Of a stretch of DNA of 53,309 nt, positions 9,737-42,389 are shown one piece after another; position 1 is the first letter of the stretch; the number at the start of each line of letters is the position of its first letter. The notes below the pieces were generated by a model. It was not told where the DNA came from and did no database searches. It saw nothing but the letters and a program-made list of their open reading frames with translations. Origin of the DNA: a virus (taxonomy: Duplodnaviria > Caudoviricetes); IMG/VR virus record IMGVR_UViG_3300032331_003728, positions 1 to 53,309 of that record, one strand, 5' to 3'. Made by a program: the position numbers and the translations under genes.

Positions 9737-12289
9737 ATGGCCGCATTTATTAGAAAACAATACGCTGGATCAGCTGTCCCAACAACGACATCAACGTTGT
9801 TGACGGTAGGCGGCACCTCCGTTGACATCCTTGCGACCACTGGCTGGCCGTCTTTACCTGGCGTCCCCTTCTATGTAGTTATTGGAACTGGAAGCGCGTA
9901 TGAGGAAAAATGTCTTGCCACAATTAGTGGGAATACACTTACTCTCACAAGAGCACAGGACGACACTACTGCCTACGAACACGCGATTGGCTCGCAGGTT
10001 TACCCGGTATTTACGGCTAATGACGCCGACGAAGCGAACGAACTTGTAACCAAACTCACAACCAAGGGCGACCTGCTCGTCACCGATGGCAACGGTTTGT
10101 TCAGACTTGACATAGGCGAGAACGGTTATTTCCTTAAAGCAAATAATTCTGCTTCATTTGGTGTTGAATGGGGTTCAATCCCAACTATCAATAGTCTTGA
10201 CGACGTTGGCGACGTAACGATAACAACCATCGAAGATGGTGACTTCTTAAAGTACAGTACTTCAGCATCTGCCTGGATTAATGAAACAGTCCACTTTCTT
10301 ACGGTCTCAGACACCGCTCCAAGCGACGAAGTAAAAGAAGGTGACCTCTGGTACAACTCAAGTGAACTTGAACTTTACACTTATTACTCAAGCAACTGGG
10401 TGCAAGTAACTCTTACACCAGAATTTCTGACAGTAGAAGAGCTTGACAATGTTTACATTGACAACGCAAATGCCGGCGATGTTTTAACTTTTGACGGCCT
10501 TGACTGGTATAACGATAACGTGGTCAGCCTTTTGGGACCAGATATATCTGTGGACACCGTAACAGCTTCAGTGTTCACTGGAAACTTGACTGGAAACTCC
10601 GACACGGCAACTGCTTTAGAAACACCACGAACAATATCCCTCTCTGGTGATGTGTCTGGCTCGGTTTCTTTTGACGGCACTCAAGATGTTTCCATATCGG
10701 CAACAGTCCAAATAAACTCCATAACCCTTGGGACGGATACAACTGGCAATTATATGTCTGGTATATCTGTGCAAAACGGACTCACTGTTTCGCATACTCC
10801 AGGAGAAGGTTCTTCAGCAACAGTTGGGATAGACAACGCTCTACTTAGTAATTTCCTGCTTGACGGTGCAAGCGGCAACTCGTATGGCCTTATAGGAACT
10901 TCGGCATATCTTGATGTAAAAAACACCAACGGTTACAACAAAGAAATTGAATTAGATATTGCCGCTGTCAAGACGCAACTCAATACAGATGGCTATTTAA
11001 CCGAGTCGAGCACAAGCACTCTTACAAATAAGACACTTACATCTCCGAAAATCAATGAGAACGTTGCGGTTACTGCGACTGCTACGGAATTGAATTATGT
11101 GGATGGTGTAACCTCTGCAATCCAGACACAATTAAACGACAAGGCGCCACTCGCTAGCCCAACATTCACCGGAACAGTTTCCGGAATAACCAAGACAATG
11201 GTGGGGTTGGGCAATGTTGACAATACTGCCGACAGTGCGAAACCAGTTTCTACGGCGCAACAAACGGCTCTTGACTTAAAAGCAAACTTGGCTTCTCCAG
11301 CCTTGACTGGGACACCAACGGCTCCAACAGCAGCAGCATCAACGAATACAACCCAAGTTGCCACTACGGCATTTGTTCGTGCAGAAGTCGCAGCACTCGT
11401 TGGTACCGCTGGAGCAACGCTAGATACTCTTGGTGAACTTGCTACCGCACTTGGAAATGATGCAAACCTTTCCACGACACTTACGACCAGCATTGGTCTA
11501 AAAGCACCACTTGCTTCACCAACATTCACGGGTACGGTAACACTTCCTGACAACACAGTTGCGCTTGGGGTAAAAACTACCGGTGATTATGTTTCATCCT
11601 TGGTTCAAGGAACAGGAGTAACGATAACCAACAACACGGGAGAAAGCTCAACTCCAACTATTGCGATTGGTCAATCAGTAGACACCAGTTCCTCTGTTCA
11701 GTTTGCAGCAGTTACGGCACCAGTGATTGGCAACGCATCAACAGCTACAACGCTACAAACCGCTCGTACGATAACCCTTGGCGGTGACCTTAGTGGTTCG
11801 GTGTCTTTTAATGGTTCTTCTAACGTAACACTTACGGCCACTGTTGCAGCAGACTCGGTAGCACTCGGTACAGACACAACTGGAAACTATATGGCCAATG
11901 TTTCTGCAAGTACTGGAATATCAATCTCCCACACTCAGGGTGAAGGTTCGACTGCGACAATTTCAACAACTGGCGTTCAGACGCTCGGTGCAAAAGCCGG
12001 CAACTACACGCTTGCTGCTGGTGATGCTGCAGAAACAATTATTATCATGGACTCAAGCTCCGCAAATGACCTGACCGTTCCACCGGCTTCGAGCGTTGCA
12101 TTTACAACGGGGACAAGTATCACTGTTATTCAACGTGGAACTGGCAAAACAAGAATACTTGCAGGCGCTGGAGTCACACTTCTTGCAACACCGGGTGTTT
12201 ACTTGAGAGCCAGATATTCATCTTGCACAATAGTCAAAACAGAAAATGCAAACGAGTGGTTTGTTATAGGTGACTTGGCGGCATCGTGA
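9737..12289 (+). CDS. Tail fibre protein
   Basis: AGGAG RBS; fibre motifs LTTKGDLL, LDDVGDV, EGDLWYNS, LTNKTLTSP, KAPLASPTFTG, SPALTGTPTAPT, DTLGELATAL; C-terminal YTL...LTVPP..SVAF..G...GDL domain. Confidence 0.85.
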   Translation: MAAFIRKQYAGSAVPTTTSTLLTVGGTSVDILATTGWPSLPGVPFYVVIGTGSAYEEKCLATISGNTLTLTRAQDDTTAYEHAIGSQVYPVFTANDADEANELVTKLTTKGDLLVTDGNGLFRLDIGENGYFLKANNSASFGVEWGSIPTINSLDDVGDVTITTIEDGDFLKYSTSASAWINETVHFLTVSDTAPSDEVKEGDLWYNSSELELYTYYSSNWVQVTLTPEFLTVEELDNVYIDNANAGDVLTFDGLDWYNDNVVSLLGPDISVDTVTASVFTGNLTGNSDTATALETPRTISLSGDVSGSVSFDGTQDVSISATVQINSITLGTDTTGNYMSGISVQNGLTVSHTPGEGSSATVGIDNALLSNFLLDGASGNSYGLIGTSAYLDVKNTNGYNKEIELDIAAVKTQLNTDGYLTESSTSTLTNKTLTSPKINENVAVTATATELNYVDGVTSAIQTQLNDKAPLASPTFTGTVSGITKTMVGLGNVDNTADSAKPVSTAQQTALDLKANLASPALTGTPTAPTAAASTNTTQVATTAFVRAEVAALVGTAGATLDTLGELATALGNDANLSTTLTTSIGLKAPLASPTFTGTVTLPDNTVALGVKTTGDYVSSLVQGTGVTITNNTGESSTPTIAIGQSVDTSSSVQFAAVTAPVIGNASTATTLQTARTITLGGDLSGSVSFNGSSNVTLTATVAADSVALGTDTTGNYMANVSASTGISISHTQGEGSTATISTTGVQTLGAKAGNYTLAAGDAAETIIIMDSSSANDLTVPPASSVAFTTGTSITVIQRGTGKTRILAGAGVTLLATPGVYLRARYSSCTIVKTENANEWFVIGDLAAS

Positions 12290-13248
12290 TTCCGGGCAAT
12301 CAGGCAAGTGGTGGAAAGTTTATTGACCCGCCAGATTCAATATCTGTAGTACCAAACGCTCTGGGCGGTGCCAGCGACATAGTCATCAATCACACTGGTT
12401 ACAAAGGAAAATCTGGGTCGGTTAAATTCAGGGTCACTTCAAACACTGGGGTCAGTTCTATTTCGGAAACTACAAGTGGCTCATCAAGGTCTATATCTTT
12501 GACCGGTTTAACTAATGGGGTGAGTTACACGTTTTCAGCAGTCACAATTGAGTCTCAGTCTTCTGTTGAATCTTTATCTGCCGCAACATCTGCGTCTTCG
12601 TTGGTGGCTGGAGTTCCAACCGCACCAGACCAACCAACAGTCTCGGCTGGAAACGGACAGGTTGGAGTTTCGTGGAATACACCAGCAAACAACGGTGCTG
12701 CTATTACGAGTTATATTGTTTACTGGTCAACATCGTCTGCTGCTATTCAAAGTTGGTCAAACTCTGTAAACACTGGTTCGACATCCACGTCTTATACCGT
12801 TACTGGATTGAGCAATGGAACTGCGTATTATTTTACGGTTATAGCAGTAAACGCTACTGGTCAGAGTGCAAGGTCTGCTGTTTCTAGCGGAGCAACGCCT
12901 GTTGTTCCAGGTCCACCACCACCCCCACCATGCTCTTGTGATGGTGTAGCCAGAAGACAATACGGTCAGTATTCATATTTGGACCCAGCCGGTTATGGTT
13001 GGACTTGCGACGGAACAGTTAGCTACGAATACTACGTATATGGAACTTGTGGTGGAGGAGCTTGCCCTGGTGAGGGCGGTTATAACGGAGCATACAGAAA
13101 TGGTGTTTGCGGTTATGTAACCCCACCTGCTCCAACTCCGACTCCGACTCCGACTCCGACTCCGACTCCGACCCCGACACCGACACCGACACCGACACCT
13201 GCGCCGTGTACCCCAGTTTGCATCAAGGGAGAATGTGCATGTATTTGA
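12286..13248 (+). CDS. FN3-domain protein with Cys-rich and (PT)n C-terminal tail
   Basis: Two FN3-like domains (LTGLTNGVSYTF; P.AP..PTVSAGNGQV.VSW..PANNG...YTVTGLSNGTAYYFTV.AVN); tail with 10 Cys and 11 PT repeats; GTGA overlap with the fibre gene. Confidence 0.85.
   Translation: MIPGNQASGGKFIDPPDSISVVPNALGGASDIVINHTGYKGKSGSVKFRVTSNTGVSSISETTSGSSRSISLTGLTNGVSYTFSAVTIESQSSVESLSAATSASSLVAGVPTAPDQPTVSAGNGQVGVSWNTPANNGAAITSYIVYWSTSSAAIQSWSNSVNTGSTSTSYTVTGLSNGTAYYFTVIAVNATGQSARSAVSSGATPVVPGPPPPPPCSCDGVARRQYGQYSYLDPAGYGWTCDGTVSYEYYVYGTCGGGACPGEGGYNGAYRNGVCGYVTPPAPTPTPTPTPTPTPTPTPTPTPTPAPCTPVCIKGECACI
13132..13200 (+). repeat. Hexanucleotide tandem repeat (CCGACT/CCGACA)n encoding (PT)11
   Basis: Directly visible in the sequence. 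Confidence 0.9.
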
Positions 13249-13743: not shown

Positions 13744-14331
13744 ATGAAATACATCAATGTTAACGGTGTCTGTATTTACAGAAATGCAATCATTAATCCA
13801 CACGAGATAATAGAAGCTTCTGAGTTGTTGAACATTTCAACCGATAGCAAGGGCAATTGGAGCCAATCTACAGTGATTGATACTGAGGGGAAGGTCTTTG
13901 TTTCTGACGTTAGAACAAATCAGCTAATGTTTACCCCAACGCCAACCCAGAATGGTGACGAATCATCCGCTCAGGTAATGTTAGCAAACAAAATCAACGA
14001 GTATGTTCTCCCATGTGTCCAGAACTTTGCTGCAAAATTTGGGCTGTCAATCAAATTTCAATCCACCCATGGATATCAAATTCTTAAATATTCAATTGGC
14101 GAGCATTACGTATCCCACCTAGACGACGGGGAAAAAACTAGGCGTTACGCATCCGCTGTTGTATATCTCAACGATGACTATGAGGGCGGAGAGTTGTATT
14201 TTCAAGATTTGAATTTTACTTATCAGCCCGTTGCTGGAGATGTTGTAATTTTTCCTTCTGGAGCACCGTTTAGGCATGAGGCAAAACCGGTAATAAGCGG
14301 TATCAAGTACTCCATTGCTAATTGGTGGTAA
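13744..14331 (+). CDS. 2OG-Fe(II) oxygenase (prolyl 4-hydroxylase-like)
   Basis: HLD...YLNDDYEGGELYF...P.AGDVVIFPS...HEAKPVISGIKYS. Confidence 0.92.
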   Translation: MKYINVNGVCIYRNAIINPHEIIEASELLNISTDSKGNWSQSTVIDTEGKVFVSDVRTNQLMFTPTPTQNGDESSAQVMLANKINEYVLPCVQNFAAKFGLSIKFQSTHGYQILKYSIGEHYVSHLDDGEKTRRYASAVVYLNDDYEGGELYFQDLNFTYQPVAGDVVIFPSGAPFRHEAKPVISGIKYSIANWW

Positions 14332-18707: not shown

Positions 18708-18723
18708 ATGACTGGAGTAAGTA

Positions 18724-19029
18724 ATGGCTAATTCAGCTAAAACACTATTTAGAGGTGCGGCAACCACAACTACAAGCACAACTCTTTACACTGTGCCGTC
18801 CGCGACAACAGCAATTGTGACAAACATTGTTGTCACCAATACTGCAGCAACAGACGGAACATTTACTTTGTCCCTGGATGATGTAGCTTTTGCATCCGCC
18901 GTAACGGTTCCTGCTAAGGGTATTTTTACTCTTGACATCAAACAAGTATTAACTACAACCAAAACAATAAAGGGTGGCGCTAATGCCACCTCTGTTAACT
19001 TCCACATCAGTGGAATGGAGATTGCATAA
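18724..19029 (+). CDS. Small virion structural protein
   Basis: GGAG RBS; TTLYTVPS.TTAIVTNIVV.N...FHISG.EI pattern. Confidence 0.65.
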   Translation: MANSAKTLFRGAATTTTSTTLYTVPSATTAIVTNIVVTNTAATDGTFTLSLDDVAFASAVTVPAKGIFTLDIKQVLTTTKTIKGGANATSVNFHISGMEIA

Positions 19030-21785: not shown

Positions 21786-21787
21786 AT

Positions 21788-22567
21788 ATGGCAACTATCG
21801 ACTTCCCGAACGGAGCGCAATCCGGGGACCAGCACACAAGCAATGGTAAGACCTGGACGTATAACGGCTCTGGCTGGGTGTTGGTAACAATACCAACGGC
21901 AATGTTCACAGCATCGTCTATTAATGGTTCAACGCTAGTTGCTGGAACTGTTCCTCTATCAAAAATAACTTCTGGAACCGAAGCGCAAACCATTGTGTAT
22001 AGCTCGGGTGGAGTTCCAACGGCGGTATCTGTGACCGGAGACGTGCTTATCGGCGGCACAGGTGTTACGGCAATAGCATCTGGCGTGATAGTCAATGCAG
22101 ATATCAACGCTTCCGCCGCAATTACTAATACCAAGATTGCTGGGACAGCAGTAACTCTTGCGGATTCTGGAACGGTTACCTCAGCAATGATTGCTGACTC
22201 AACAATTGTTGACGGAGACATAAGTGCTTCCGCCAATATCTCCCAAGGCAAAATCGCAGATATCTTGACAAATGCTCAGGCTGCAAGCTACACACTGGTA
22301 CTTGCCGACAAAAATAAGATTGTTGAAATGAGCGTGGCATCAGCAAACGACTTAACAATTCCTCCAAACTCGTCGGTGGCTTTCCCAATCGGCAGCCAAA
22401 TACAGGTCCTTCAGACAGGAGCAGGTAAGACGAGAATTCTGGCAGGCGCTGGTGTCACCGTGAACGCAACTCCAGGTATTTATCTGCGCGCTCAGTGGTC
22501 GGGTGTTACGCTTCTAAAAAGAGCAACAGATACATGGGTGGCAACGGGAGACCTTTCAGCTACATAA
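21788..22567 (+). CDS. Short fibre protein
   Basis: IDFP..W.YNG..W N-terminus; IVNADI/IVDGDIS repeats; C-terminal domain paralogous to that of 9737..12289 (NDLT.PP.SSVAF..G...GKTRILAGAGVT..ATPG.YLRA..S...W...GDL). Confidence 0.8.
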   Translation: MATIDFPNGAQSGDQHTSNGKTWTYNGSGWVLVTIPTAMFTASSINGSTLVAGTVPLSKITSGTEAQTIVYSSGGVPTAVSVTGDVLIGGTGVTAIASGVIVNADINASAAITNTKIAGTAVTLADSGTVTSAMIADSTIVDGDISASANISQGKIADILTNAQAASYTLVLADKNKIVEMSVASANDLTIPPNSSVAFPIGSQIQVLQTGAGKTRILAGAGVTVNATPGIYLRAQWSGVTLLKRATDTWVATGDLSAT

Positions 22568-22570
22568 CTT

Positions 22571-23377
22571 ATGGCCGTTTCAAGCAACAAACAAGTCGAT
22601 TCTGGCGGAAAAGAACCGTCTGCGCCAACGATTGGTACCCCACTGCTTGCAACAGGAACATCAGCAAGCGTTGTTTTTACTGCATCTACTTATATAGGTA
22701 AGGGGACGGTAACCTATAGGGCGACCTCGGACTCCGGCCAAACAGCCACTGGAAATTCCAGCCCAATCGTAGTAAGTGGAATGACAGCAGGAACAACAAG
22801 AACGTTCACTGTTGTAGCAATTTCTTCAACTGGGGTTGAATCGCCTTCATCCGCAGTGAGCCCTTCGCTTGTCATGGGTGTTGGTCCATCTGCACCGACA
22901 ATTGGTTCTGCGACTGGCGGTAATGCCTCGGCAACCGTTGCATACACCGCAGGAGCCACAGGAACCGCTGCTTCTGCAACGTACACTGCCACTTCATCAC
23001 CTGGCGGGTTAACGGGCACTGGAGCGTCTCCTATCACTGTCTCCGGCCTTACTAATGGCACTGCCTATACATTCACCGTGACCGCATCGACCGCTTTTGG
23101 CACTGCGACCTCCGCAGCATCAAACTCAGTGACTCCAGTAGCGCCTCCGTATTTCCCACCGTTTTTTCCACCGTTTTTCCCTCCGTATTTCCCACCGTTC
23201 TTCCCGCCGTTTTTCCCGCCTTACTTCCCTCCATTTTTCCCGCCATTTTTCCCACCGTATTTCCCACCCTTCTTCCCGCCATTTTTTCCACCTTATTTCC
23301 CGCCGTTCTTCCCACCATTTTTCCCGCCATTTTTTCCTCCGTTCTTTCCTCCATACTTCCCTCCGAGGTTTAAGTAG
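22571..23377 (+). CDS. FN3-domain protein with C-terminal (PP[F/Y]F)19 polymer
   Basis: Two FN3-like domains (PSAPTIG...SPITVSGLTNGTAYTFTVTA...SNSVTP) followed by a Pro/aromatic repeat. Confidence 0.88.
   Translation: MAVSSNKQVDSGGKEPSAPTIGTPLLATGTSASVVFTASTYIGKGTVTYRATSDSGQTATGNSSPIVVSGMTAGTTRTFTVVAISSTGVESPSSAVSPSLVMGVGPSAPTIGSATGGNASATVAYTAGATGTAASATYTATSSPGGLTGTGASPITVSGLTNGTAYTFTVTASTAFGTATSAASNSVTPVAPPYFPPFFPPFFPPYFPPFFPPFFPPYFPPFFPPFFPPYFPPFFPPFFPPYFPPFFPPFFPPFFPPFFPPYFPPRFK
23144..23371 (+). repeat. 12-bp imperfect tandem repeat, 19 units, encoding PPYF/PPFF (last unit PPRF)
   Basis: 228 nt read directly; synonymous codons vary between units. Confidence 0.95.
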
Positions 23378-23380
23378 AAA

Positions 23381-23959
23381 ATGAAATCAATTTACGACAT
23401 CGACCTCAAGTCATGGGATGGCGAACGAGATATTCTCAAGGACTGTGAAGGCAAGGTAACGCTAATCATTAATACGACTGGACACTGTGGAAACGCACCC
23501 CAGTTTGGAATCATCGAGGGTCTTTACCAAAAGTACAAAGACCTTGGATTTAACGTTGTTGCTGTTCCTACAAATGATTTTTGCGGCGGTGGAGTTACAT
23601 ACGGAGAGTACGCAGACGGTGTAAGAGATGCAAAGCACGCAAGGGATTATGGTGTTGACGAATGGAACGCTTCGTTTGATTTCTCCGAATTAATTGTTTC
23701 ATGGCACGAAAAGCAAGAAGAAAAGAAAAACACGCCACATGAGTTGTATCAAAACCTTATGACAAATGAGGAAAAAAGACTTAAGCAAGATATGACTGGG
23801 AACTTTGAAAAGTTTCTAATTAACAAAAAAGGCGAAAGAGTAGCAAGACTTACCAACGGTGTACTTCTTGAGTATGCGTACAATGACGGTTATTGCGAGT
23901 CTCCAGAAGTTGAGCTTGAAAAACTATCTAAAATGATTGAAGACGAGTTAGCAAAATGA
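23381..23959 (+). CDS. Glutathione peroxidase-fold protein (Cys type)
   Basis: SIYDI...GKVTLIIN...CG..PQ...LY.KY...GF.VVAVPTNDF...NFEKFLI.K.G. Confidence 0.85.
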   Translation: MKSIYDIDLKSWDGERDILKDCEGKVTLIINTTGHCGNAPQFGIIEGLYQKYKDLGFNVVAVPTNDFCGGGVTYGEYADGVRDAKHARDYGVDEWNASFDFSELIVSWHEKQEEKKNTPHELYQNLMTNEEKRLKQDMTGNFEKFLINKKGERVARLTNGVLLEYAYNDGYCESPEVELEKLSKMIEDELAK

Positions 23960-24849
23960 CAACCATTGATACATATCTAAAAGGTGACTACAGAAAGGCC
24001 TACGAGGTCACTCACCCAGTTTCTCTTTATGACATTCCTATTGCTTCTGCGGATGGAAAAGTTAAAGACATATTTGCTGGCAGGAAAGGTAAGGTAACTC
24101 TTATATTCAATTGCGCTGCTGGTTGCGGAAATATCCCACAACACGGAGTTATTGAGCAACTGAACCAGCGCTATGCAAACGAAAAAGACTTTGACATCAT
24201 TGCAGTAGTTGTCGATGATTTTCAGTGCCATGGATACAAAGAATTCCAAGATGGAATTGCCTCGTACTGCCAAACAATTGGTCTTGACATGTCGGTCGGC
24301 GAATTTGCTAAAAAGTATGCTGAAGAAAACTTTGGCACCACTTTTGAGTTCTCAGAACTCACAAACGCTAGATTTGACAAAGTCACATATGAATCAGACT
24401 TTGCGCCAAATACGGCCATAAATCAAACCCAGAATTCTCTTTGGTACTACCTAACCGAGGGCTACAAGGCAACAGTAAACAAACTAGGAATACCATATAC
24501 GGGAGAAGTGGTTCCTTGGTCAAAAGGACAAGAAGAACATCTTGGTGGGGATCCCATAGCGGCATTCCCAAAAAAGGGTAATTTTACAAAATTTTTGATT
24601 GATAGAACCGGAACCAAAACAAACCGATAGTCCAACGGCTTCCTGCTTGGTGAGAGAGACGTAAATGGGGAAATCTATCCATGGTTGGAAGAAAAACTTC
24701 TTGAAGATGGTCAAAAAGACTGGAACCCATTTTTGGGCGTGAAAGAAGATGGTCAGCCTTGGGTGAATCCACAGGTCAAAGAAAAGGGTGTTGACCTGTC
24801 GCTTGACCTAATCAGCAGAGACATTGACGAATTCCTGAGTCAGGCATAA
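23956..24849 (+). pseudogene. Glutathione peroxidase-fold protein interrupted by an in-frame TAG at 24628-24630 (nonsense mutation, sequencing error or readthrough)
   Basis: GKVTLIFN.AAGCG.IPQ and GNFTKFLIDRTG; the frame continues for 72 codons after the TAG (SNGFLL...LDLISRDIDEFLSQA), matching the paralog's C-terminus. Confidence 0.7.
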
Positions 24850-24875
24850 ACATCAAAATAAGATAGTCTTATTTC

Positions 24876-25493
24876 ATGGATTCGCCTTGGAAGATAAAAC
24901 CGGGATTTTTTGGAACTGGTCCAGAAAATATCCATATCATCAAGAACTTCATTGATGAAAAAGATGTAGCGACTATCGCTTCATTTGTACGGACCATTGA
25001 CGAGTGGTCAAATGGCTCAGATGAGGACATCTTTGACGAAAATGGGGTTTGCACCTACAGTGCCGCGTATTGGAATAACAGGCAATGCACCGCAGATATT
25101 TTGCAAAGAATCAATAAGGAGGTATACGACCTTATTGATTTCTATCTCGACAAGATGGCTGTGACCGCGGGTGAGATTTTTAATTGCAAACTACAGAAAC
25201 GACCACCATGCATAGTTAGATGGTTTGGTGGGATTGAACAACGTCCGCACGCCGACAAACAAATGAACGATGGCTCACCAAACCCGTTTCCCACATATGA
25301 CATCAACTCCCTTTTCTATTGGAACGATGACTTTGAGGGCGGAGAGCTTTACTATCCCGAACATGACATCGTTGTGAATCCAGAACCAGGACTTGCTGTA
25401 ATACATCCTGGGGATATTAATTACCTACACGGAGTCAGAATGATTAAGAGCGGCGAGCGCTACACGTCACCAGCGTTCTTTACGGTTGAATAA
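24876..25493 (+). CDS. 2OG-Fe(II) oxygenase
   Basis: HAD...YWNDDFEGGELYY...HGV...GERYT. Confidence 0.92.
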   Translation: MDSPWKIKPGFFGTGPENIHIIKNFIDEKDVATIASFVRTIDEWSNGSDEDIFDENGVCTYSAAYWNNRQCTADILQRINKEVYDLIDFYLDKMAVTAGEIFNCKLQKRPPCIVRWFGGIEQRPHADKQMNDGSPNPFPTYDINSLFYWNDDFEGGELYYPEHDIVVNPEPGLAVIHPGDINYLHGVRMIKSGERYTSPAFFTVE

Positions 25494-25494
25494 T

Positions 25495-26157
25495 ATGGGA
25501 CACGAACCGCTTCTTGCCAATACGCCAAGGATAGGTTTGTTCGTTGAATACCTACCACAGGATGAATGGGGGGTAGTAAAAGCATATTGCGAGAACAACG
25601 AAGAAAAATTTGAATTCGTTGGTCACAATCCAGAGATTGGTTGGAAGAAAAAGACTCATTCAGTTAACCCGAGCATAACGTTTCAAACTTCATTCCTTCC
25701 AACCAAAGATGAAATTGATTCTGGCGGCTACATGACAAACGGAGACAACTACAAAATTTCCATGCATGAGCCGGAAGATGCACAGGTTAACAAAATTCTG
25801 TCGTGGATGTTGATAAATGTTAGAGACACAATAAAGGAAACTTACGGAAATAAGACCTATTTTGAAAGTGGTCCCTGGCTGTCAATGGCTAAAAAAGGCG
25901 ACAACATGGGACTGCACTGTGACGGAGTATTTTTGGACAAGGTTGGCGCAGTCACCGACTTTTCTTGCGTTTATTATGTCAACGACGACTACGAGGGCGG
26001 TGAACTATACATGCCAATCCTTGGACTATCGATAAAACCAAAAGCTAATTCTCTGCTGATTTGGTCTCACACTTGGCACGAAGATATGGCCCATGGCGTG
26101 AAACCGATTGTTTCCGGTACTCGTTATATGTCGCAAGGCTTCTTCACAACTGTATAG
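25495..26157 (+). CDS. 2OG-Fe(II) oxygenase
   Basis: HCD...YVNDDYEGGELY...HGVKP..SGTRY; ATG at 25495 preferred to the TTG at 25486. Confidence 0.9.
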   Translation: MGHEPLLANTPRIGLFVEYLPQDEWGVVKAYCENNEEKFEFVGHNPEIGWKKKTHSVNPSITFQTSFLPTKDEIDSGGYMTNGDNYKISMHEPEDAQVNKILSWMLINVRDTIKETYGNKTYFESGPWLSMAKKGDNMGLHCDGVFLDKVGAVTDFSCVYYVNDDYEGGELYMPILGLSIKPKANSLLIWSHTWHEDMAHGVKPIVSGTRYMSQGFFTTV

Positions 26158-26160
26158 AAT
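26155..26160 (+). promoter_or_regulatory. -10 element TAGAAT of a probable leaderless transcript
   Basis: 6 nt upstream of the ATG at 26167; no SD sequence. Confidence 0.5.
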
Positions 26161-26166
26161 GGGTTT

Positions 26167-26832
26167 ATGAGAACCGAAATACTGAGCGACCCCCGCCTTG
26201 GCGTCATTGTTTACAAGGATGCACTGACAAAAGAACTTGACATAATCAACCGCCTGGAGTCGACTATTGGAAACAGCACGACAATGCCGTTTATGTGGTG
26301 CGAGGCCCTTGTCGGGTATTCGGAAAAAATGCCAGAATACCGAGATTGCGTGGACTGCAAGATTGGCACGACACACATAGACCACCTTCACCACTACCCA
26401 CAGTTTGCTGAACTGAAGAACATTTACAACGATACTGCCACTGCAATTCGTAAGTGCATGGACGACTATCAGAGTCGGTATAACATAAACATGCAATACA
26501 TGGAGGCTATTAACTTCATTCGGTATAAGGCAAATCAGCACTTCCAAGTACACACAGACCATGGATTTTCCTACACATGCACTGTCTCATCTGTTGTCTA
26601 TTTTAACGACGACTATGAAGGTGGTGAGCTTTGGTTCCCATACCTTGATTTAACCATAAAGCCAGAAGCCGGAGACATCGTGATGTTCCCGTCAACTTTC
26701 ATTTATGCTCATGCCGCAAAACCTGTAATAAGCGGAGTTAAATACTCTGGCGTAACAATGTTTGACTACAACGACAGAAATCATGACATCAAGGGTAGTT
26801 ACGACGGAGTCAGGGCTCCACTAAATCAATAG
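26167..26832 (+). CDS. 2OG-Fe(II) oxygenase
   Basis: HTD...YFNDDYEGGELWF...HAAKPVISGVKYS. Confidence 0.92.
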   Translation: MRTEILSDPRLGVIVYKDALTKELDIINRLESTIGNSTTMPFMWCEALVGYSEKMPEYRDCVDCKIGTTHIDHLHHYPQFAELKNIYNDTATAIRKCMDDYQSRYNINMQYMEAINFIRYKANQHFQVHTDHGFSYTCTVSSVVYFNDDYEGGELWFPYLDLTIKPEAGDIVMFPSTFIYAHAAKPVISGVKYSGVTMFDYNDRNHDIKGSYDGVRAPLNQ

Positions 26833-27374
26833 TGGCAGTTATCGGAATCTACTCGCCGGGAGCAATGGGCTCGACACTTGCTTACTCCTGCTCTCTAATT
26901 GGGCACAAAACAATATGGGCATCAGAAGGTCGTTCTGAAAAAACCATAATTCGTGCAAAAAAATTTGGGATAGAGGATGTTGTTTCACTCAAAAACCTTT
27001 TAGAAAAAAGTGATTTTATATTCTCGATTGCCAGCAACTTTGACGCATTTGAATTTGCTAGAGTTGTTGGATTAAGTGGTTTTAAAGGTATTTACGTTGA
27101 TTTTAATACCATGTATACGGATACCGACGGAAGTGAGCTTGAAAACATACTTGCCCAAAACAACATAAAGTATACCGAAGGGGCACTGCGCGGTTGGCCG
27201 ATTACCGAGCCATCAAGCGAGGATATTGGCGAGAAAACAATGTACCTCTCTGGCCCATATGCAGATTCAGTTAAGGAGTTGTTCGGTGGATTTTGGAGAA
27301 TAAGAACCATGCCAAAATCTGCAAAATTATTAAATCGAGTTCTTGCAGAGGAGATGGCAATTCTTTATGGTTAA
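26832..27374 (+). CDS. NAD(P)-binding domain protein (6-phosphogluconate/3-hydroxyisobutyrate dehydrogenase N-terminal-like)
   Basis: IGIYSPGAMGS Rossmann motif, SEGRS, SDFIFS, YVDFN; short, apparently lacking most of the C-terminal domain. Confidence 0.7.
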   Translation: MAVIGIYSPGAMGSTLAYSCSLIGHKTIWASEGRSEKTIIRAKKFGIEDVVSLKNLLEKSDFIFSIASNFDAFEFARVVGLSGFKGIYVDFNTMYTDTDGSELENILAQNNIKYTEGALRGWPITEPSSEDIGEKTMYLSGPYADSVKELFGGFWRIRTMPKSAKLLNRVLAEEMAILYG

Positions 27375-28071
27375 GGTGAATCTCAAACGAACATACGATA
27401 ACCCACCAGAAATTCGACAGTCCAGAATCACCCGTGACTGGATGGACGAAACCTACAAAAAACATGCATACCAATGTTTGCCGATGACCTTTGCAAATGT
27501 CTATGGATGGGAGTTGGTCCTTCCACAAACCGTTGTTGCCCAATGGGATGGCGGCAACACTGTTCCAACCATTCTTGAGGGTGAATCATATGGCGGAAGG
27601 CAATTGGCCTACGGCGGAATTGTTGGCATGGTTTCATTTTCTACTGGTTGGATTTTTGGAACCGATCCTGGATATGAGACATTTATTGGTGGATCACCAA
27701 ATTATGTCAGAGAAGACGCACAGGCTCTATCGGCAATTATCCCCAGTAGCTGGTGGCCAGATGAGTTTCAGATGAACTGGAAGATAAACAAAGTTGGCGA
27801 ACCTGTTGTTTTTGAGGCTGGTATGCCTTTCATGTTCTTTTCCATCTTTGAAAGCACGGTTTTGGAGAATGTAGATTTTACTGTTGAGAATCTTTGGGAT
27901 GATAAAGAGCTCATGAATAGCAGGCAAAAGTACGGTGATTTAAAAATGAAAAACAACCAAGAGCAGCCCTGGACCTGGACAAAGGGTATAAAAACAGGTC
28001 TTGATGCTGATGGTAATAAGATTGGTCCAACATTCACTGGAATGCCAAAACTTCAAATTCCAGAGCAATAA
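27367..28071 (+). CDS. DUF6065-like protein
   Basis: RDWMDET..KHAYQCLPM..AN.YGWE...GSPN...W.P..F.MNWK...V.FE.G.PF pattern (family recalled from memory); start refined to the ATG at 27367. Confidence 0.7.
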   Translation: MVKVNLKRTYDNPPEIRQSRITRDWMDETYKKHAYQCLPMTFANVYGWELVLPQTVVAQWDGGNTVPTILEGESYGGRQLAYGGIVGMVSFSTGWIFGTDPGYETFIGGSPNYVREDAQALSAIIPSSWWPDEFQMNWKINKVGEPVVFEAGMPFMFFSIFESTVLENVDFTVENLWDDKELMNSRQKYGDLKMKNNQEQPWTWTKGIKTGLDADGNKIGPTFTGMPKLQIPEQ

Positions 28072-28073
28072 CA

Positions 28074-28691: not shown

Positions 28692-28903
28692 AACTTGGAA
28701 AATATGACTCTTTAATGGCAAAGAATCGCGCTGCACGGTTCTTGACTGCGTCAATCGGGGAGATGAGTCAGTTGATGGCAAGCGAGAACATGGCTCCTGT
28801 CTATTCTGGGGAAAATCCACACGAAGAAGGAACCATAGAGTACAACGCTTTTATGCTCATATCAAATGAGTACTCCGCACTGGAGGCACTGAAAGATGGA
28901 TGA
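28688..28903 (+). CDS. Hypothetical protein
   Basis: ATGA-coupled within the operon. Confidence 0.55.
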   Translation: MKLGKYDSLMAKNRAARFLTASIGEMSQLMASENMAPVYSGENPHEEGTIEYNAFMLISNEYSALEALKDG

Positions 28904-29087
28904 GTCTCAGGATTTCAAAATGAGCACCAGAAAAGGTGAAGCGATAACAGATACTGAAGAGTGGGATAACGAGATTATTGAGTGGGACCCAAGCACTGGT
29001 GTTTACTATGTTGCTGGGAAGCCGGTGTCAATGTGTCAAGGTGTAGCAATGTTCGATGTTAAAGAGGAAAAAGATGAGCAAGTATGA
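28896..29087 (+). CDS. Hypothetical acidic protein
   Basis: Overlap-coupled; GGAGG upstream. Confidence 0.55.
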   Translation: MDESQDFKMSTRKGEAITDTEEWDNEIIEWDPSTGVYYVAGKPVSMCQGVAMFDVKEEKDEQV

Positions 29088-38935: not shown

Positions 38936-40045
38936 ATGACAGTCACCAGAGAAACATACAAAGAGTTCATTGACAGGGTGAGCTATGGCGATCTTAATTC
39001 AATAATCAGCGCACCAGATACGGATTTTGAAGCAGTTGACCACATAGTCAAGAACGATAGTGATGTGATATTCACCTGGGACTACACATTGGTTAGACCT
39101 CAGCTCCGCAAGCTTTATGAAAAAGCCAAGAACAATCAATGGAATGGTGAAACTGCACTTGACTGGTCAATAGGAGTAGACGTAGAGCGTTCAGTGATGG
39201 AGGACTATGCCAACTTTGGATCAACTCGTGAAATGTCTGTGTACGAGGGAAGCCCAATAGAACACTGGGGCGATAAGGAGTGGCTTGAGTTTGGCGTCAA
39301 CAGTCGTCGTTGGCTGATCTCGCAGTTTATACACGGAGAACAAGCTGCGCTTATGTGCTCGGCAAAACTAACCCAGACATGTCCTTGGTACGACGGAAAA
39401 CTTTATGCCTCTACGCAAGTAATAGATGAAGCTAGGCACGTAGAAGTATTTGCTAAATACGGCAACGAAAAACTTGGTGGAACATTGCCTTTCAACTGGC
39501 ACATTCAGAGCCTTGTCGACGACACCATTGCGGACAATCGCTGGGACATGACCTATCTTGGAATGCAGATAATGGTCGAAGGCTTGGGTCTTGCGTCCAT
39601 GGCCTACATGCGCGAGTTAACAAGCGAACCGCTACTGAAACAACTACTCAGAAACGTAATGACAGACGAAGCGCGTCACATATCTTTCGGGATTATCTCG
39701 CTTAAGGAAATCTATGCGGAAATGAGCGACTCGGAAATTATGGAGCGTCAGCAATTTGCCTATGAGGCCAGTATAAAGCTTGGAGAACGCATGCTCCAAC
39801 AAGAGGTTTACGAAAAGATGGGCGTTAAGACAAAAGACATTGCTCCGTACCTGATGAAAGATCCAGCACAAGCATGGATTAGAAAGATGCTGTCCGCAAA
39901 AATAGTCCCAAACCTAAGCAAGCTTGGTTTACTGGATAGGAATAATGGATGGATGAGACGCAAGTTTGAAGAAATGGGAACAATAGAGTTTGAAACACTT
40001 GGTGAATCAGATGAGGAATTTGCAGAGTTCATACACAGTTACTAA
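38936..40045 (+). CDS. Ferritin-like diiron protein (AurF/para-aminobenzoate N-oxygenase-like superfamily)
   Basis: LYEKAK..QW, SQF.HGEQ.A, DEARHVEVF, EGL.LA and DEARHISFG (two ExxH diiron motifs). Confidence 0.85.
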   Translation: MTVTRETYKEFIDRVSYGDLNSIISAPDTDFEAVDHIVKNDSDVIFTWDYTLVRPQLRKLYEKAKNNQWNGETALDWSIGVDVERSVMEDYANFGSTREMSVYEGSPIEHWGDKEWLEFGVNSRRWLISQFIHGEQAALMCSAKLTQTCPWYDGKLYASTQVIDEARHVEVFAKYGNEKLGGTLPFNWHIQSLVDDTIADNRWDMTYLGMQIMVEGLGLASMAYMRELTSEPLLKQLLRNVMTDEARHISFGIISLKEIYAEMSDSEIMERQQFAYEASIKLGERMLQQEVYEKMGVKTKDIAPYLMKDPAQAWIRKMLSAKIVPNLSKLGLLDRNNGWMRRKFEEMGTIEFETLGESDEEFAEFIHSY

Positions 40046-40048
40046 ACA

Positions 40049-40717
40049 ATGATGAAAACTCCAGATGACTACTCAATAAACATGGCCTATTCGTATGCCA
40101 ATAGCAAGGATCTGTCTACTTATTACAACGACTCAGCAAGGGATTACGATGAGTTTGTTGATTCTGTCGGGTACGTACTTCCCCGATTAGTTGCTGAAAA
40201 GGCAGTTCAATATCTAAAGCATTCAGACAGCATTATTGATATTGGTTGCGGAACCGGGATATTGGGCGTTGAGTTGAATCTACTTATGGATGGTCTAATG
40301 ATTCACGGCATAGATCTTTCTTGGGAAATGATTGTCGTAGCATACGAGAAGAAAAAATTAAATGGAAGTATGTACTATGAAAAACTTTACCAAGCAGATA
40401 TAAATGATAAATCAAGTATGCCGGAAAATAAATACGATTTCATGGTTAGCTCGGGGACATTTACAACTGGACACCTAGACGGTAAACATTTGTTAAAGAT
40501 ATTTAGTGTGATGAAAGAAAATTCTTTTGCCGTTTTTAGTGTAAAGAGCGATCACTTTAAAGAATCAAATTTTATAAATGACTTAGAAGACTTGAAAAAT
40601 AATCAATTGATTAAAATTTTGGAAATATCAGAGGTTGATTCGTATGAAAATGATCAATACTCAGCTATGTCTAAGATTGTAGTTTTACAGATACAATCTT
40701 ACAAAGACAAGTTATGA
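40049..40717 (+). CDS. Class I SAM-dependent methyltransferase
   Basis: YYND.A..YD...GY..P, IIDIGCGTG, GIDLS.EM, YD...SSGTFT.GH. Confidence 0.88.
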   Translation: MMKTPDDYSINMAYSYANSKDLSTYYNDSARDYDEFVDSVGYVLPRLVAEKAVQYLKHSDSIIDIGCGTGILGVELNLLMDGLMIHGIDLSWEMIVVAYEKKKLNGSMYYEKLYQADINDKSSMPENKYDFMVSSGTFTTGHLDGKHLLKIFSVMKENSFAVFSVKSDHFKESNFINDLEDLKNNQLIKILEISEVDSYENDQYSAMSKIVVLQIQSYKDKL

Positions 40718-41495: not shown

Positions 41496-42389
41496 TTAAT
41501 AACAGAAAGCACCATCTCCGCACGGCCCACTAGTTGTGTATTTGAAGTCATATCCACAGGATTGGGCCCCACAGCAAAGGCAGGAACAAGGCGTGACACA
41601 TGCGGAGTAGCCACACCAGCCATCGACATATGCTCTATCTCTTGCATACTCACCACAGGCTCCGTCTGCGTACCAACCTACTAGTACCTGTCCGTCGCAT
41701 GATAGGCGGATGAAAGTATCAAATGGGTCACATGCCGGAGGAGGAGGGTTAGGAGGAGTTTCATTCGTGGTCTCTTCTAGGTAGATTGAGTCAGAGTTTG
41801 CCCAACCAGTCTTGGAAAGATAGACGTATGTAAAGCGGTTTACGTTCTCACCAAGGCCAGTCCAACCGTGGCAACTTCCACTCTGGTCATTTGGTACAAC
41901 ATTGTAGTTGTAGTAGTTGTAGACATATCCATCATCTTGACTTTGTGATGCATAGTTGTCATAACAAAGAGGAATCGTGGAAGTTGTTTCCGCAATGTCG
42001 GAGACAACTGGTGTCGCTATTTTCCCAAACAACGGAGTTACAGAATTTGAGTTTGTTGAGTAGGCGCCAGTTAGAACCATATTCTTCGCGGCAACCCTAA
42101 ATACATATGCCGTTCCGTTAGTTAGGCCAGTTACAGTAACTGATGTTCCAGTAGAAACTCCATCAGAGAATGTGGTCCAGTTTGAACCGCTGTCGCTCGA
42201 ATACTGGATTACGTAATCGTTAAGCGGAGGACTACCTAAAGATACTGGTGCTGTCCAAGAAACCGATGCTGTTGTATTTCCATATGTGCTTGGGAGGCTC
42301 GCCGTAACAGAAGTAGGTGCACCTGGCTTTGATGCATTGGCAAGAACAACACCACCCTGTCTCGCTGAAACTGAAGCCAAATATGGCAT
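41496..42389 (-). CDS. FN3-domain protein with Cys-rich C-terminal tail
   Basis: PGAPTSV...VSWTAP...DY.IQYS...VTGLTNGTAYVFRVAA.N; a PPNPPPP linker then a 12-Cys tail. Confidence 0.85.
   Translation of the reverse strand: MPYLASVSARQGGVVLANASKPGAPTSVTASLPSTYGNTTASVSWTAPVSLGSPPLNDYVIQYSSDSGSNWTTFSDGVSTGTSVTVTGLTNGTAYVFRVAAKNMVLTGAYSTNSNSVTPLFGKIATPVVSDIAETTSTIPLCYDNYASQSQDDGYVYNYYNYNVVPNDQSGSCHGWTGLGENVNRFTYVYLSKTGWANSDSIYLEETTNETPPNPPPPACDPFDTFIRLSCDGQVLVGWYADGACGEYARDRAYVDGWCGYSACVTPCSCLCCGAQSCGYDFKYTTSGPCGDGAFCY

What the first reader, a model, noticed from the sequence alone, without database searches (positions are those of the whole stretch)
22571..23377. Selected (PPYF-PPFF-PPFF)n polymer at the head of a 17-kb oxygenase island
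Seen: 19 tetrapeptide units with a higher-order 12-aa period (Tyr in every third unit for the first five periods), ending PPRFK. Pro/Phe/Tyr codons are synonymously scrambled, so this is not recent slippage and is conserved at protein level. The enzyme island starts 3 nt after the stop. Established analogies: plant extensins and mussel foot proteins are Pro/Tyr repeats that become hydroxylated, glycosylated or cross-linked, and PPFF occurs in the cyclic peptides antamanide and cyclolinopeptide A. Inference: this is the substrate for Pro and Phe/Tyr hydroxylation by the downstream oxygenases.
Basis: partly seen in the sequence, partly recalled or inferred. Interest (0 to 1): 0.85.

Follow-up and report, generated by a model that had tools for sequence, protein, structure and literature searches.

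The report
Phage proline-phenylalanine tail beside hydroxylase genes
An uncultured phage ends a small tail-fibre-region protein in 19 strictly conserved Pro-Pro-Tyr/Phe-Phe units, and this undescribed tail travels with collagen-type proline-hydroxylase-like genes, so it is their likeliest but still untested substrate.

Summary
ORF 22571-23377 encodes two FN3 domains and then 18 PP[Y/F]F units, PPRF and Lys. Tyr is in units 1, 4, 7, 10, 13 and 18.

Selection on the tail is strong. Two orthologues differ from it by 29 and 40 synonymous codons and by no residue.

The 17.3-kb island is real. It starts 3 nt after the stop and holds 13 2OG-Fe(II) oxygenase ORFs, 12 PF13640 and one PF13759. It also holds three GSHPx-like genes, DUF6065, an AurF-like gene and a methyltransferase.

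- 31 of 31 related viral loci with such a tail have a 2OG oxygenase within the next seven genes.
- 124 of 140 more divergent loci do too, and none has one upstream.
- 120 of 122 loci with enough flank share two oxygenase types plus DUF6065.

A 174-kb and a 113-kb phage share almost nothing except this cassette.

The closest solved relatives of the oxygenases are prolyl and lysyl hydroxylases. The substrate reading is plausible, but no chemistry is shown. Phe/Tyr hydroxylation has no support, and the family is one lineage.

This scan found the same module earlier on other DNA. The searched literature does not describe it.

The parts
21788..22567 (+). 259-aa fibre-tip-like protein directly upstream. 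A domain of this kind precedes the tail gene in most related loci.
   Evidence: It matches PHROG phrog_8780 'minor tail protein' at E 3.5e-23. tblastn finds Gordonia phage minor tail proteins. A best match to it is present in 89 of 122 loci.
22571..23377 (+). The focal gene: two FN3 domains, then (PPxF)19, then Lys.
   Evidence: Pfam fn3 scores 29.4 bits against a cut-off of 25. AlphaFold2 gives two beta-sandwiches with pLDDT above 90.
23144..23371 (+). The Pro-Pro-Tyr/Phe-Phe tail: 18 PP[Y/F]F units plus PPRF. It is the candidate hydroxylase substrate.
   Evidence: There are 0 non-synonymous against 29 and 40 synonymous codon differences to two orthologues. AlphaFold2 pLDDT is 46-61 with no regular secondary structure.
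23381..24630 (+). Two glutathione-peroxidase-like genes (23381-23959 and 23956-24630). They are an addition specific to this lineage.
   Evidence: Pfam GSHPx E 3.1e-11, and 3e-5 which is below the cut-off. Best matches to them occur in only 8 and 5 of 122 loci.
24876..25493 (+). 2OG-Fe(II) oxygenase of the W24876 type, a core cassette member.
   Evidence: Pfam PF13640 E 2e-4, below the cut-off. My HMM scores it at 188 bits. The type is present in 120 of 122 loci. Nearest solved proteins are prolyl 3-hydroxylase 1, B. anthracis P4H and LH3, all weakly.
25486..26157 (+). 2OG-Fe(II) oxygenase paralogue.
   Evidence: Pfam PF13640 E 9.9e-10.
26167..26832 (+). 2OG-Fe(II) oxygenase of the W26167 type. 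It is a core cassette member and the best candidate prolyl hydroxylase.
   Evidence: PF13640 scores 46.9 bits against a cut-off of 27. The best solved relative is Bacillus anthracis P4H 3itq/5hv0 at E 8e-7. H129, D131, H182 and K192 are invariant in 22 sequences. The type is present in 120 of 122 loci at median 48% identity.
27343..28071 (+). DUF6065 protein, a core cassette member with a predicted dUTPase-like barrel and a nearly invariant Cys.
   Evidence: Pfam DUF6065 E 4.3e-44. AlphaFold2 pLDDT is 78.9. Foldseek top hits are dUTPases, E about 1e-4, target TM-score 0.53-0.79. C45 is nearly invariant. Present in 120 of 122 loci. No match in 50,697 cultured-phage records.
28074..38914 (.). 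The rest of the oxygenase array. Ten 2OG oxygenase ORFs lie at 28074, 30073, 30740 (PF13759), 32247, 33446, 34315, 35046(-), 36119(-), 36818 and 38282. A third GSHPx-like gene lies at 31615-32250.
   Evidence: Pfam.
38936..40717 (+). An AurF-like di-iron protein (38936-40045, below the Pfam cut-off) and a SAM methyltransferase (40049-40717). This is the end of the island and is specific to this lineage.
   Evidence: An AurF-type best match occurs in 1 of 122 loci.
12286..13248 (+). A paralogue with two FN3 domains, a run of six Pro, a Cys-rich domain and about 13 Thr-Pro units.
   Evidence: It is 44% identical to the focal FN3 part. Its sequence is shown.
13744..14331 (+). A 2OG oxygenase inside the fibre module, two genes after the paralogue at 12286-13248.
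   Evidence: PF13640 E 5.8e-16.
41496..42389 (-). A second paralogue on the far side of the island: FN3, a Pro-rich stretch and a Cys-rich domain. It follows a fibre-like gene (42391-43668, -).
   Evidence: Pfam fn3 E 7.4e-11. Its sequence is shown. PHROG tail-fibre hits for the 42391-43668 gene.

Best explanation
**What it is.** The gene encodes a small accessory protein of the tail-fibre module. Two FN3 domains carry a 76-residue Pro-Pro-aromatic-Phe tail. The protein belongs to a mobile cassette: a fibre-tip gene, then the FN3-tail protein, then an array of prolyl-hydroxylase-like 2OG-Fe(II) oxygenases plus a dUTPase-fold DUF6065 protein.

**How it most likely works.** After translation, one or more cassette oxygenases hydroxylate prolines of the tail. 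The conserved W26167 and W24876 types are the first candidates. Hydroxylation would stiffen and solubilise an otherwise very hydrophobic, extended polyproline-like stalk on a virion surface or fibre protein.

**Shown.**
- The protein, and its selection.
- The cassette and its conservation.
- The enzyme family, and intact catalytic residues in the W26167 type.

**Inferred.**
- Virion association.
- The extended conformation of the tail.
- Hydroxylation itself.
- Which residues and which enzymes are involved.
For: **Selection.** The tail is identical in two orthologues despite 29 and 40 synonymous codon changes.

**Operon layout.** The gene sits 3 nt after the fibre-tip-like gene and 3 nt before the island.

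**Neighbourhood.**
- 31 of 31 tail-bearing viral loci have a 2OG oxygenase in the next 7 genes. Only 1 of 48 FN3-only loci does, and that one has a degenerate tail.
- 124 of 140 loci found with more divergent queries do too, and 0 of 140 have one upstream.
- The first oxygenase is at gene +1, +2 or +3 in 120 of the 140.
- After de-replication at 90% identity, 79 of 81 evaluable clusters keep the linkage.

**Core cassette.** The W26167 type, the W24876 type and DUF6065 are each present in 120 of 122 loci with at least 7 kb downstream.

**Reciprocal search.** Loci found with the W24876 oxygenase carry a tail frame in 37 of 66 cases. Two apparent misses have the tail just beyond the fetched stretch.

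**Different backbones.** A 174-kb relative of the window has hits for 50 of 60 window genes at median 83% identity. A 113-kb phage shares only 22 of its 150 ORFs with it, and 15 of those 22 lie in the cassette region.

**Enzyme family.**
- PF13640 matches.
- The nearest solved structures are P4H, P3H1 and LH3.
- The His-x-Asp...His triad and a Lys are invariant in the W26167 family.

**Joint absence from cultured phages.** The tail protein has no tblastn match. DUF6065 has none. W26167 reaches at most 34% identity among the listed rows.

**More of the same in the window.** Two further FN3 plus Pro-rich paralogues lie within a few genes of oxygenases.

**Precedent.** Chlorovirus PBCV-1 encodes a prolyl 4-hydroxylase that acts on Pro-containing peptides (passages of PMC7019647).
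Against: - No chemistry of any kind is shown.
- Fifteen oxygenase-like ORFs in the window are far more than a monotonous polymer seems to need.
- Phage Syn9 has ten tandem dioxygenases right after its fibre genes. It has no such tail and almost no orthologues of this array. Arrays beside fibre genes therefore do not need a tail of this kind.
- In a second clade the tail gene lies between fibre genes, 2-11 kb from the array.
- Some loci hold a second tail gene inside the fibre module, away from the array. One has no oxygenase among its listed downstream genes before the locus ends. The tail may therefore travel with the fibres rather than with the enzymes.
- All non-repeat parts fall into 4 single-linkage clusters at 50% identity, two of them singletons. 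The linkage may be one inherited state.
- For PBCV-1 itself, hydroxyproline was not detected in virion proteins (passage of PMC7019647).
- A Pro-Pro-aromatic-Phe context is not, to my knowledge, a known substrate motif of prolyl hydroxylases. This is recalled, not tested.
Confidence: 0.5

Rival explanations
1. The tail is only a structural element of a fibre accessory protein: a rigid or sticky Pro/Phe stalk, spacer or anchor. The oxygenase array acts on something else, such as other fibre proteins, host envelope components or small molecules. On this reading the adjacency reflects a shared host-range module and not an enzyme-substrate pair.
For: - The tail gene always lies in or at the end of the fibre genes.
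- In the second clade it sits between fibre genes, 2-11 kb from the array.
- Second tail genes occur away from the array.
- Syn9 keeps an array beside its fibre genes without any tail.
- The shared cassette also includes the fibre-tip domain.
- The domains around the tail vary, as expected of a linker. The N-terminal part has one to four FN3 domains or a PASTA-like domain. The C-terminus ends in Lys, a Cys-rich domain or a Hint domain.
Against: - The tail is more constrained than the FN3 domains, down to the order of Tyr and Phe. That is unusual for a mere spacer.
- The same two oxygenase types and DUF6065 accompany it in 120 of 122 loci and across unrelated backbones.
- The oxygenases are of the peptidyl-prolyl/lysyl hydroxylase kind. 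The tail is by far the most Pro-rich product of the seven structural-module ORFs examined: 18% Pro and 19 PP motifs, against 0-5 PP motifs in the others.
Confidence: 0.3
2. The island makes or tailors a secondary metabolite, or a cleaved peptide product. This is the proposal of Iyer et al. 2010 for cyanophage dioxygenase arrays, or a RiPP-like scheme in which the tail is the core peptide.
For: - Passages of PMC2938197 describe ten tandem dioxygenases, halogenases and a dUTPase-fold Cys protein in Syn9 and propose a role in metabolite synthesis.
- This island also has a dUTPase-fold protein with a nearly invariant Cys.
- It also has a methyltransferase and an AurF-like gene.
Against: - Pfam finds no protease, cyclase, halogenase, NRPS or transporter in the island.
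- The supposed precursor has 190 residues of folded FN3 domains and no spacers or cleavage motifs between units.
- The methyltransferase and the AurF-like gene are absent from nearly all related cassettes.
- The Syn9 array is not orthologous to this one.
Confidence: 0.07
3. The oxygenases repair or modify nucleic acids, which is the older proposal for P4H-domain genes of Syn9. On this reading the tail is unrelated to them.
For: A passage of PMC2984593 reports this proposal for Syn9 genes that lie next to uvsX and uvsY. One paralogue (36119-36949) has a weak Tet_JBP hit below the cut-off.
Against: - The array here lies between fibre genes and not beside replication or repair genes.
- The nearest solved relatives are protein hydroxylases.
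- This reading does not explain the near-universal linkage to the tail.
Confidence: 0.05
4. The repeat is a recent slippage product or an assembly artefact with no function.
For: It is a low-complexity tandem repeat, and the number of units varies among relatives, from 8 to 21 PPxF motifs in the loci.
Against: - Codons are scrambled and the longest exact internal repeat is 20 nt.
- There are 0 non-synonymous against 29-40 synonymous differences between orthologues.
- The frame is intact in well over 150 independent contigs.
Confidence: 0.01

Closest known systems
Chlorovirus PBCV-1 prolyl 4-hydroxylase and Pro-containing peptide substrates (Eriksson et al. 1999, J Biol Chem 274:22131). I saw only the passages and the reference entry in the review PMC7019647, not the paper itself.
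   Same: [quoted passage not shown]
   Different: - PBCV-1 is a virus of a eukaryote with one enzyme. Here a phage of bacteria has 13 oxygenase ORFs in one island.
- In PBCV-1 the substrates were inferred from scattered viral ORFs. Here one conserved candidate substrate gene heads the enzyme array.
- The review states that hydroxyproline was not detected in PBCV-1 virion proteins.
Tandem dioxygenase array of Synechococcus phage Syn9, gp41-gp54 (Iyer, Abhiman, de Souza and Aravind 2010, PMC2938197; passages read).
   Same: Both are tandem arrays of many 2OG dioxygenases in a large aquatic phage, directly downstream of fibre genes. Both include a dUTPase-fold protein with a conserved Cys.
   Different: - Syn9 has no Pro-Phe tail.
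- Its array includes tryptophan halogenases, PF13759 and DUF6445 members, and only one PF13640 member above the cut-off.
- blastp finds only gp50 (29%) and gp53 (26%) related to the window's enzymes.
- Homology of gp43 to DUF6065 is not established: hhalign probability 2.8%, E 0.016.
- The authors proposed metabolite synthesis and not protein modification.
Bacterial collagen-like or tail-collar proteins encoded with beta-hydroxylases and sulfotransferases (prediction in PMC2938197; passages read).
   Same: A repetitive structural protein is encoded next to 2OG hydroxylases and is proposed as their substrate.
   Different: - Those substrates are Gly-rich collagen-type triplets or T4 short-tail-fibre collar domains. 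This tail has no Gly.
- Pfam found no sulfotransferase here.
Plant extensins and proline-rich proteins, and mussel foot proteins (recalled from general knowledge; no call).
   Same: They are Pro- and Tyr-rich tandem repeats of extracellular structural proteins that are hydroxylated by P4H-type enzymes.
   Different: - The tail has no Ser-Pro runs, no Lys-rich decapeptides and no Tyr-x-Tyr motif.
- It is half Phe, which those proteins are not.
- There is no sequence homology.
Immunoglobulin-like and FN3 decoration domains on phage structural proteins, such as T4 Hoc (recalled; no call).
   Same: They are small beta-sandwich domains displayed on virions, often on accessory proteins encoded beside structural genes.
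   Different: Hoc binds the capsid through a globular C-terminal domain. Here the only non-FN3 part is the Pro-Phe tail, and virion association is not shown.

Membership tests
P4H-type 2OG-Fe(II) oxygenases (Pfam PF13640), asked of neighbour 26167-26832 | Match to the family profile above its curated cut-off | tested here: met
   46.9 bits against a cut-off of 27. Eleven more island ORFs reach E <= 2e-4, eight of them above the cut-off.
P4H-type 2OG-Fe(II) oxygenases (Pfam PF13640), asked of neighbour 26167-26832 | His-x-Asp...His iron triad and a basic residue for 2OG | tested here: met
   H129, D131, H182 and K192 are invariant in 22 sequences down to 38% identity. A crude motif scan finds His-x-Asp/Glu...His...Arg/Lys in 14 of the window's 15 oxygenase-like ORFs.
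P4H-type 2OG-Fe(II) oxygenases (Pfam PF13640), asked of neighbour 26167-26832 | Closest solved relatives are peptidyl-prolyl hydroxylases | tested here: met
   B. anthracis P4H 3itq/5hv0/5iax at E 8e-7. Two other paralogues hit P3H1, P4H and LH3 weakly.
P4H-type 2OG-Fe(II) oxygenases (Pfam PF13640), asked of neighbour 26167-26832 | Hydroxylation of peptidyl proline | not testable with these tools
   This needs an enzyme assay or mass spectrometry.
FN3-domain phage accessory or decoration protein, asked of the focal protein | FN3 beta-sandwich domains | tested here: met
   Pfam fn3 scores 29.4 bits against a cut-off of 25. AlphaFold2 gives two all-beta domains with pLDDT above 90.
FN3-domain phage accessory or decoration protein, asked of the focal protein | Presence in the virion | not testable with these tools
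   Only the gene's position at the end of the fibre genes speaks for it.
Collagen-like proteins | Gly at every third residue | tested here: not met
   The 76-residue tail has no Gly.
Extensins and hydroxyproline-rich glycoproteins | Ser-Pro(3-5) motifs and Tyr-x-Tyr cross-link motifs (features recalled) | tested here: not met
   The tail contains only PPYF, PPFF and PPRF units.
RiPP precursor with tailoring cluster | A short leader-core peptide with a cleavage site, and a protease or cyclase in the cluster | tested here: not met
   There are 190 residues of folded FN3 domains before the repeat and no spacers between units. Pfam found no protease or cyclase in the island.
Syn9-type tandem dioxygenase array (Iyer et al. 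2010) | A tandem array of many 2OG dioxygenases with a dUTPase-fold Cys protein | tested here: met
   The island has 13 oxygenase ORFs. DUF6065 has a predicted dUTPase-like fold and a nearly invariant Cys.
Syn9-type tandem dioxygenase array (Iyer et al. 2010) | Tryptophan halogenases and a JmjC/MINA member; orthology of the members | tested here: not met
   No halogenase or JmjC hit in the island. Only 2 of 17 Syn9 proteins hit window proteins, at 26-29% identity.

The most novel reading that the evidence does not exclude
Phages of bacteria build an oxygen-dependent, post-translationally hydroxylated Pro-Phe filament on their host-recognition apparatus, and it may also be glycosylated or cross-linked. 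It would be a functional counterpart of collagen or extensin, made from a polymer without glycine. The cassette (fibre tip, FN3-tail protein, P4H-like array, DUF6065) would move as a unit between unrelated phage backbones. That would give the first defined substrate, and the first role, for the large 2OG-oxygenase arrays of aquatic phages, unexplained at least since their description in 2010 (PMC2938197).
Probability: 0.35. Interest if true: 0.85.

Novelty: new variant of a known kind. Interest (0 to 1): 0.7.

Why it matters
**An open question becomes testable.** Large arrays of 2OG-Fe(II) oxygenases in aquatic phages have had no known substrate. Published proposals are DNA repair (passage of PMC2984593) and metabolite synthesis (passages of PMC2938197). 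This cassette offers a concrete candidate: one small protein and two or three conserved enzymes that can be co-expressed and analysed by mass spectrometry.

**If the tail is hydroxylated:**
- It would be the first structural protein of a bacterial virus known to me to need this modification (recalled, not searched).
- It would be a new Pro-aromatic polymer, of interest for materials work.
- It would suggest that oxygen and iron supply can limit the assembly or host recognition of these phages.

**If it is not,** the tail is still an undescribed and extremely constrained sequence module. It is present in well over 150 phage contigs fetched here.

Tried and rejected
**Complex prediction.** I submitted the W26167 oxygenase alignment, Fe and tail residues 183-268. 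The verdict was 'no answer': score 0.00 against a mark of 0.32, and the controls were not run. This counts neither for nor against binding.

**ESM Atlas.** A search with the tail gave no usable hit.

**Polyproline-II idea for the super-period.** My early idea was that the 12-aa period follows polyproline-II geometry, since 12 is the common multiple of 3 and 4. I dropped it. Other lineages have 5-unit (20-aa) periods, or pure PPFF or PPYF runs. The period more likely records the unit of DNA amplification.

**'T4-like cyanophage'.** I dropped this label.
- One structural gene is 69-75% identical at DNA level to Synechococcus phages.
- Five complete or nearly complete relatives have no psbA.
- A search for Pfam Gp23 found nothing, but its control was silent, so that result is uninformative.

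**Cultured phages.**
- tblastn with the focal protein and with P0031 found nothing. BLAST's low-complexity filter masks the tail, so only the FN3 part was really tested.
- Direct pattern scans of Syn9, S-PM2 and Sf-CH11 found no array. The single hit, in Sf-CH11, has 2 mismatches.

**Syn9 gp43 against DUF6065.** hhalign gave probability 2.8% and E 0.016, which is inconclusive.

**Cellular genomes.** The pattern scan gave 14 stretches.
- Six are true family genes on phage-like contigs of four metagenome-assembled genomes from unrelated taxa, so no host can be inferred.
- Eight are short frames without FN3 or PASTA-like domains and without oxygenases. I do not count them as members.

**Literature.**
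- Searches for PPFF, PPYF, PPFFPPFF, PPHF and Pro-Pro-Phe-Phe listed nothing on phage proteins. They listed only unrelated acronyms and cyclic Pro-Pro-Phe-Phe peptides.
- One search listed phage genome papers that name 2OG oxygenases without a substrate.
- Supplements of PMC2938197 were not seen and may list more phage arrays.
Full report
**1. The observation**

- Residues 1-191 hold two FN3 domains. Pfam fn3 scores 29.4 bits against a cut-off of 25. AlphaFold2 gives two beta-sandwiches with pLDDT above 90.
- Residues 192-267 are 18 PP[Y/F]F units and one PPRF, followed by Lys and a stop.
- Tyr is in units 1, 4, 7, 10 and 13, and again in unit 18.
- Tandem Repeats Finder reports a 36-nt period (6.2 copies, 82% matches, no indels, score 255) and a 12-nt period.

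The codons are scrambled.
- Differences between units fall 18 : 90 : 390 on codon positions 1 : 2 : 3.
- All position-1 and position-2 differences lie in the variable third residue of the unit.
- The longest exact internal DNA repeat is 20 nt.

Two orthologous tails have the same residues in the same order but differ by 29 and 40 synonymous codons of 77. The FN3 part against the first orthologue shows 48 synonymous and 11 non-synonymous differences of 190. The tail is therefore a real protein feature under stronger constraint than the folded domains. AlphaFold2 leaves it extended and uncertain, with pLDDT 46-61 and no regular secondary structure.

**2. The surroundings in the window**

The gene is the last of a + strand run of fibre and structural genes, 4657-22567 (PHROGs).
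- It starts 3 nt after a 259-aa fibre-tip-like gene.
- It ends 3 nt before the island.

The island, 23381-40717, is 17.3 kb. It holds:
- thirteen 2OG-Fe(II) oxygenase ORFs, twelve PF13640 and one PF13759;
- three GSHPx-like genes;
- DUF6065;
- an AurF-like gene, below the Pfam cut-off;
- a methyltransferase.

Two more oxygenases lie outside the island: 13744-14331 and 47590-48435.

The window also holds two paralogues with FN3 domains, a Pro-rich stretch and a Cys-rich domain.
- One is at 12286-13248, two genes before the oxygenase at 13744.
- The other is at 41496-42389 on the minus strand, on the far side of the island.

**3.

*Loci found with the focal protein.* The search gave 80 viral loci. 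One, L081, dropped out of my gene set, which left 79.
- All 31 loci with a tail ORF have a 2OG oxygenase among the next seven genes. The oxygenases were detected with an HMM built from 13 of the window's PF13640-type oxygenase ORFs.
- Only 1 of the 48 FN3-only loci has one, and its protein has a degenerate tail.
- That control is not matched, because the FN3-only loci are unrelated phages.

*Loci found with more divergent family members (P0012, P0043).* These gave 145 loci.
- 140 have a Pro/aromatic-rich frame.
- 124 of the 140 have an oxygenase within seven genes downstream. None has one upstream.
- Of the 16 misses, 8 have no downstream gene at all, 3 have one to three, and 5 are loci with two tail genes where I scored the longer one, which has no oxygenase among its next seven genes.

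*The core of the cassette.* Among 122 loci with at least 7 kb downstream, 120 hold a W26167-type oxygenase, 120 a W24876-type oxygenase and 120 a DUF6065 protein. The two exceptions end at the second tail gene. The GSHPx-like, AurF-like and methyltransferase genes are rare additions.

*After de-replication at 90% identity of the non-repeat part,* 79 of 81 evaluable clusters keep the linkage. At 50% single linkage only four clusters remain, so the family is one lineage.

**4. Reciprocal and whole-genome tests**

- The W24876 oxygenase found 66 new loci. 37 of them have a tail frame.
- The misses have short flanks or only distant oxygenases.
- Two apparent misses carry the tail just outside the fetched stretch. 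One of these is a complete 210-kb genome.
- Two complete 116-kb genomes with only distant oxygenases have no tail.

A complete 174-kb relative of the window has hits for 50 of 60 window genes at median 83% identity. A complete 113-kb phage shares only 22 of its 150 ORFs with it.
- 15 of the 22 lie in the 10-32 kb region that holds the fibre-tip domain, the tail protein, the oxygenases and DUF6065.
- The other seven are a ribonucleotide reductase and six others, most of them small.

The cassette is therefore shared by backbones that are otherwise unrelated.

In 50,697 cultured-phage records:
- the tail protein has no match;
- DUF6065 has none;
- W26167 reaches at most 34% identity among the listed rows.

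**5. What the enzymes are**

- W26167 matches PF13640 above the cut-off.
- Its best solved relative is Bacillus anthracis prolyl 4-hydroxylase, at E 8e-7.
- H129, D131, H182 and K192 are invariant across 22 sequences.
- Two other paralogues weakly hit prolyl 3-hydroxylase 1 and P4H. One of them also hits lysyl hydroxylase LH3.
- DUF6065 is predicted (pLDDT 78.9) to have a dUTPase-like barrel. Foldseek E is about 1e-4 and the target TM-score is 0.53-0.79. It has a nearly invariant Cys.
- That fits the 'dUTPase-fold protein with a conserved cysteine' which Iyer et al. noted in the Syn9 array (passages of PMC2938197). Direct homology to Syn9 gp43 is not established.

**6. Against the substrate reading**

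- Syn9 has its dioxygenase array directly after its fibre genes and no tail.
- Its array is built from other families.
- In a second clade the tail gene lies between fibre genes, 2-11 kb from the array.
- Fifteen oxygenase-like ORFs seem too many for one monotonous polymer.
- Hydroxyproline was not found in virions of PBCV-1, the one virus with a characterised P4H (passage of PMC7019647).
- No chemistry is shown here.

**7. Verdict**

Best reading, at about 0.5: the tail is a substrate of cassette-encoded prolyl-hydroxylase-like enzymes, on a fibre-associated protein.

Main rival, at about 0.3: the tail is a structural stalk or anchor that merely travels with the fibre module, and the enzymes act elsewhere.

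Other points:
- Phe/Tyr hydroxylation is unsupported.
- The host is unknown. There is no psbA in five complete or nearly complete relatives. The four metagenome-assembled genomes that hold family members belong to unrelated taxa.
- Searches of the held literature found no description of such tails.
- This scan had already noted the same module on other DNA, with the same reading. Three of those leads were re-tested here: the Iyer et al. paper, the dUTPase fold, and the sharing between unrelated backbones.

Noticed in passing
Related loci L109, L115, L117, L121, L124, L125, L126, L130, L133, L136, L139 and L153. An example is L127:12586-13050, minus strand.: In a second clade the tail sits on a small PASTA-like protein whose gene needs a +1 frameshift. 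12 of 13 distinct loci have an ATG-started ORF of about 42-52 codons that ends just inside the tail frame, and the tail frame is +1 relative to it. 12 of the 13 tail frames have no ATG or GTG of their own. The junction always holds a CGG codon after AAA, GTA or GTG. The two frames match adjoining parts of the single-frame homologue P0098: residues 8-37 at E 4e-11 and residues 37-77 at E 1.5e-9. This is a candidate programmed +1 frameshift at a rare Arg codon.
   Followed up: partly
L273:9992-11269, and proteins P0056, P0069, P0074, P0076, P0104 and P0106: Some family members carry a Hint-type domain after the tail. The evidence is a Pfam Hint_2 hit at E 6.6e-4, below the cut-off, in L273 and a precomputed PF07591 on P0106. 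This hints at self-cleavage at the end of the tail. Many others end in small Cys-rich domains.
   Followed up: partly
window 1-3229, minus strand: A nucleotide-sugar epimerase-like gene (1-852, cut by the window edge) and a glycosyltransferase-like gene (2126-3229) lie 19 kb upstream of the tail gene. They could glycosylate virion proteins. No link to the tail was tested.
   Followed up: no
window 23381-24630 and 31615-32250: Three glutathione-peroxidase-like genes lie inside the oxygenase island. Best matches to them occur in only 5-8 of 122 related cassettes. Their role is unknown. It might be peroxide control or keeping the iron reduced.
   Followed up: no
window 19029-21785: This 918-aa structural gene is the only part of the 7-kb query (19000-26000) with DNA-level similarity (69-75%) to cultured Synechococcus and Prochlorococcus phages. 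Even so, five complete or nearly complete relatives lack psbA. It may be a structural gene exchanged between phage groups.
   Followed up: partly
window 21788-22567: The closest matches of the fibre-tip-like protein among cultured phages are minor tail proteins of Gordonia phages: 223 of 245 matching records, 32-50% identity among the listed rows. They are not cyanophage proteins.
   Followed up: no
window 4657-9714: A 1685-aa protein contains eight stretches matching PHROG phrog_23524, of unknown function. It is a large repetitive structural protein at the head of the fibre module.
   Followed up: no
L325 (Dehalococcoidia MAG chromosome), L328 (Ca. Poriferisodalaceae MAG chromosome), L323, L326, L331, L333, L334 and L335: Short DNA tandem repeats that would code for PPFF or PPYF runs occur in metagenome-assembled bacterial genomes. 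They have no FN3 domain and no oxygenases, and some lie within or opposite larger ORFs. They are probably unrelated simple repeats.
   Followed up: partly
protein P0010: One database homologue leaves the Pro-Phe frame after two units and continues in a Ser/His/Arg-rich frame. This is probably a frameshift error or a natural frameshift variant.
   Followed up: no
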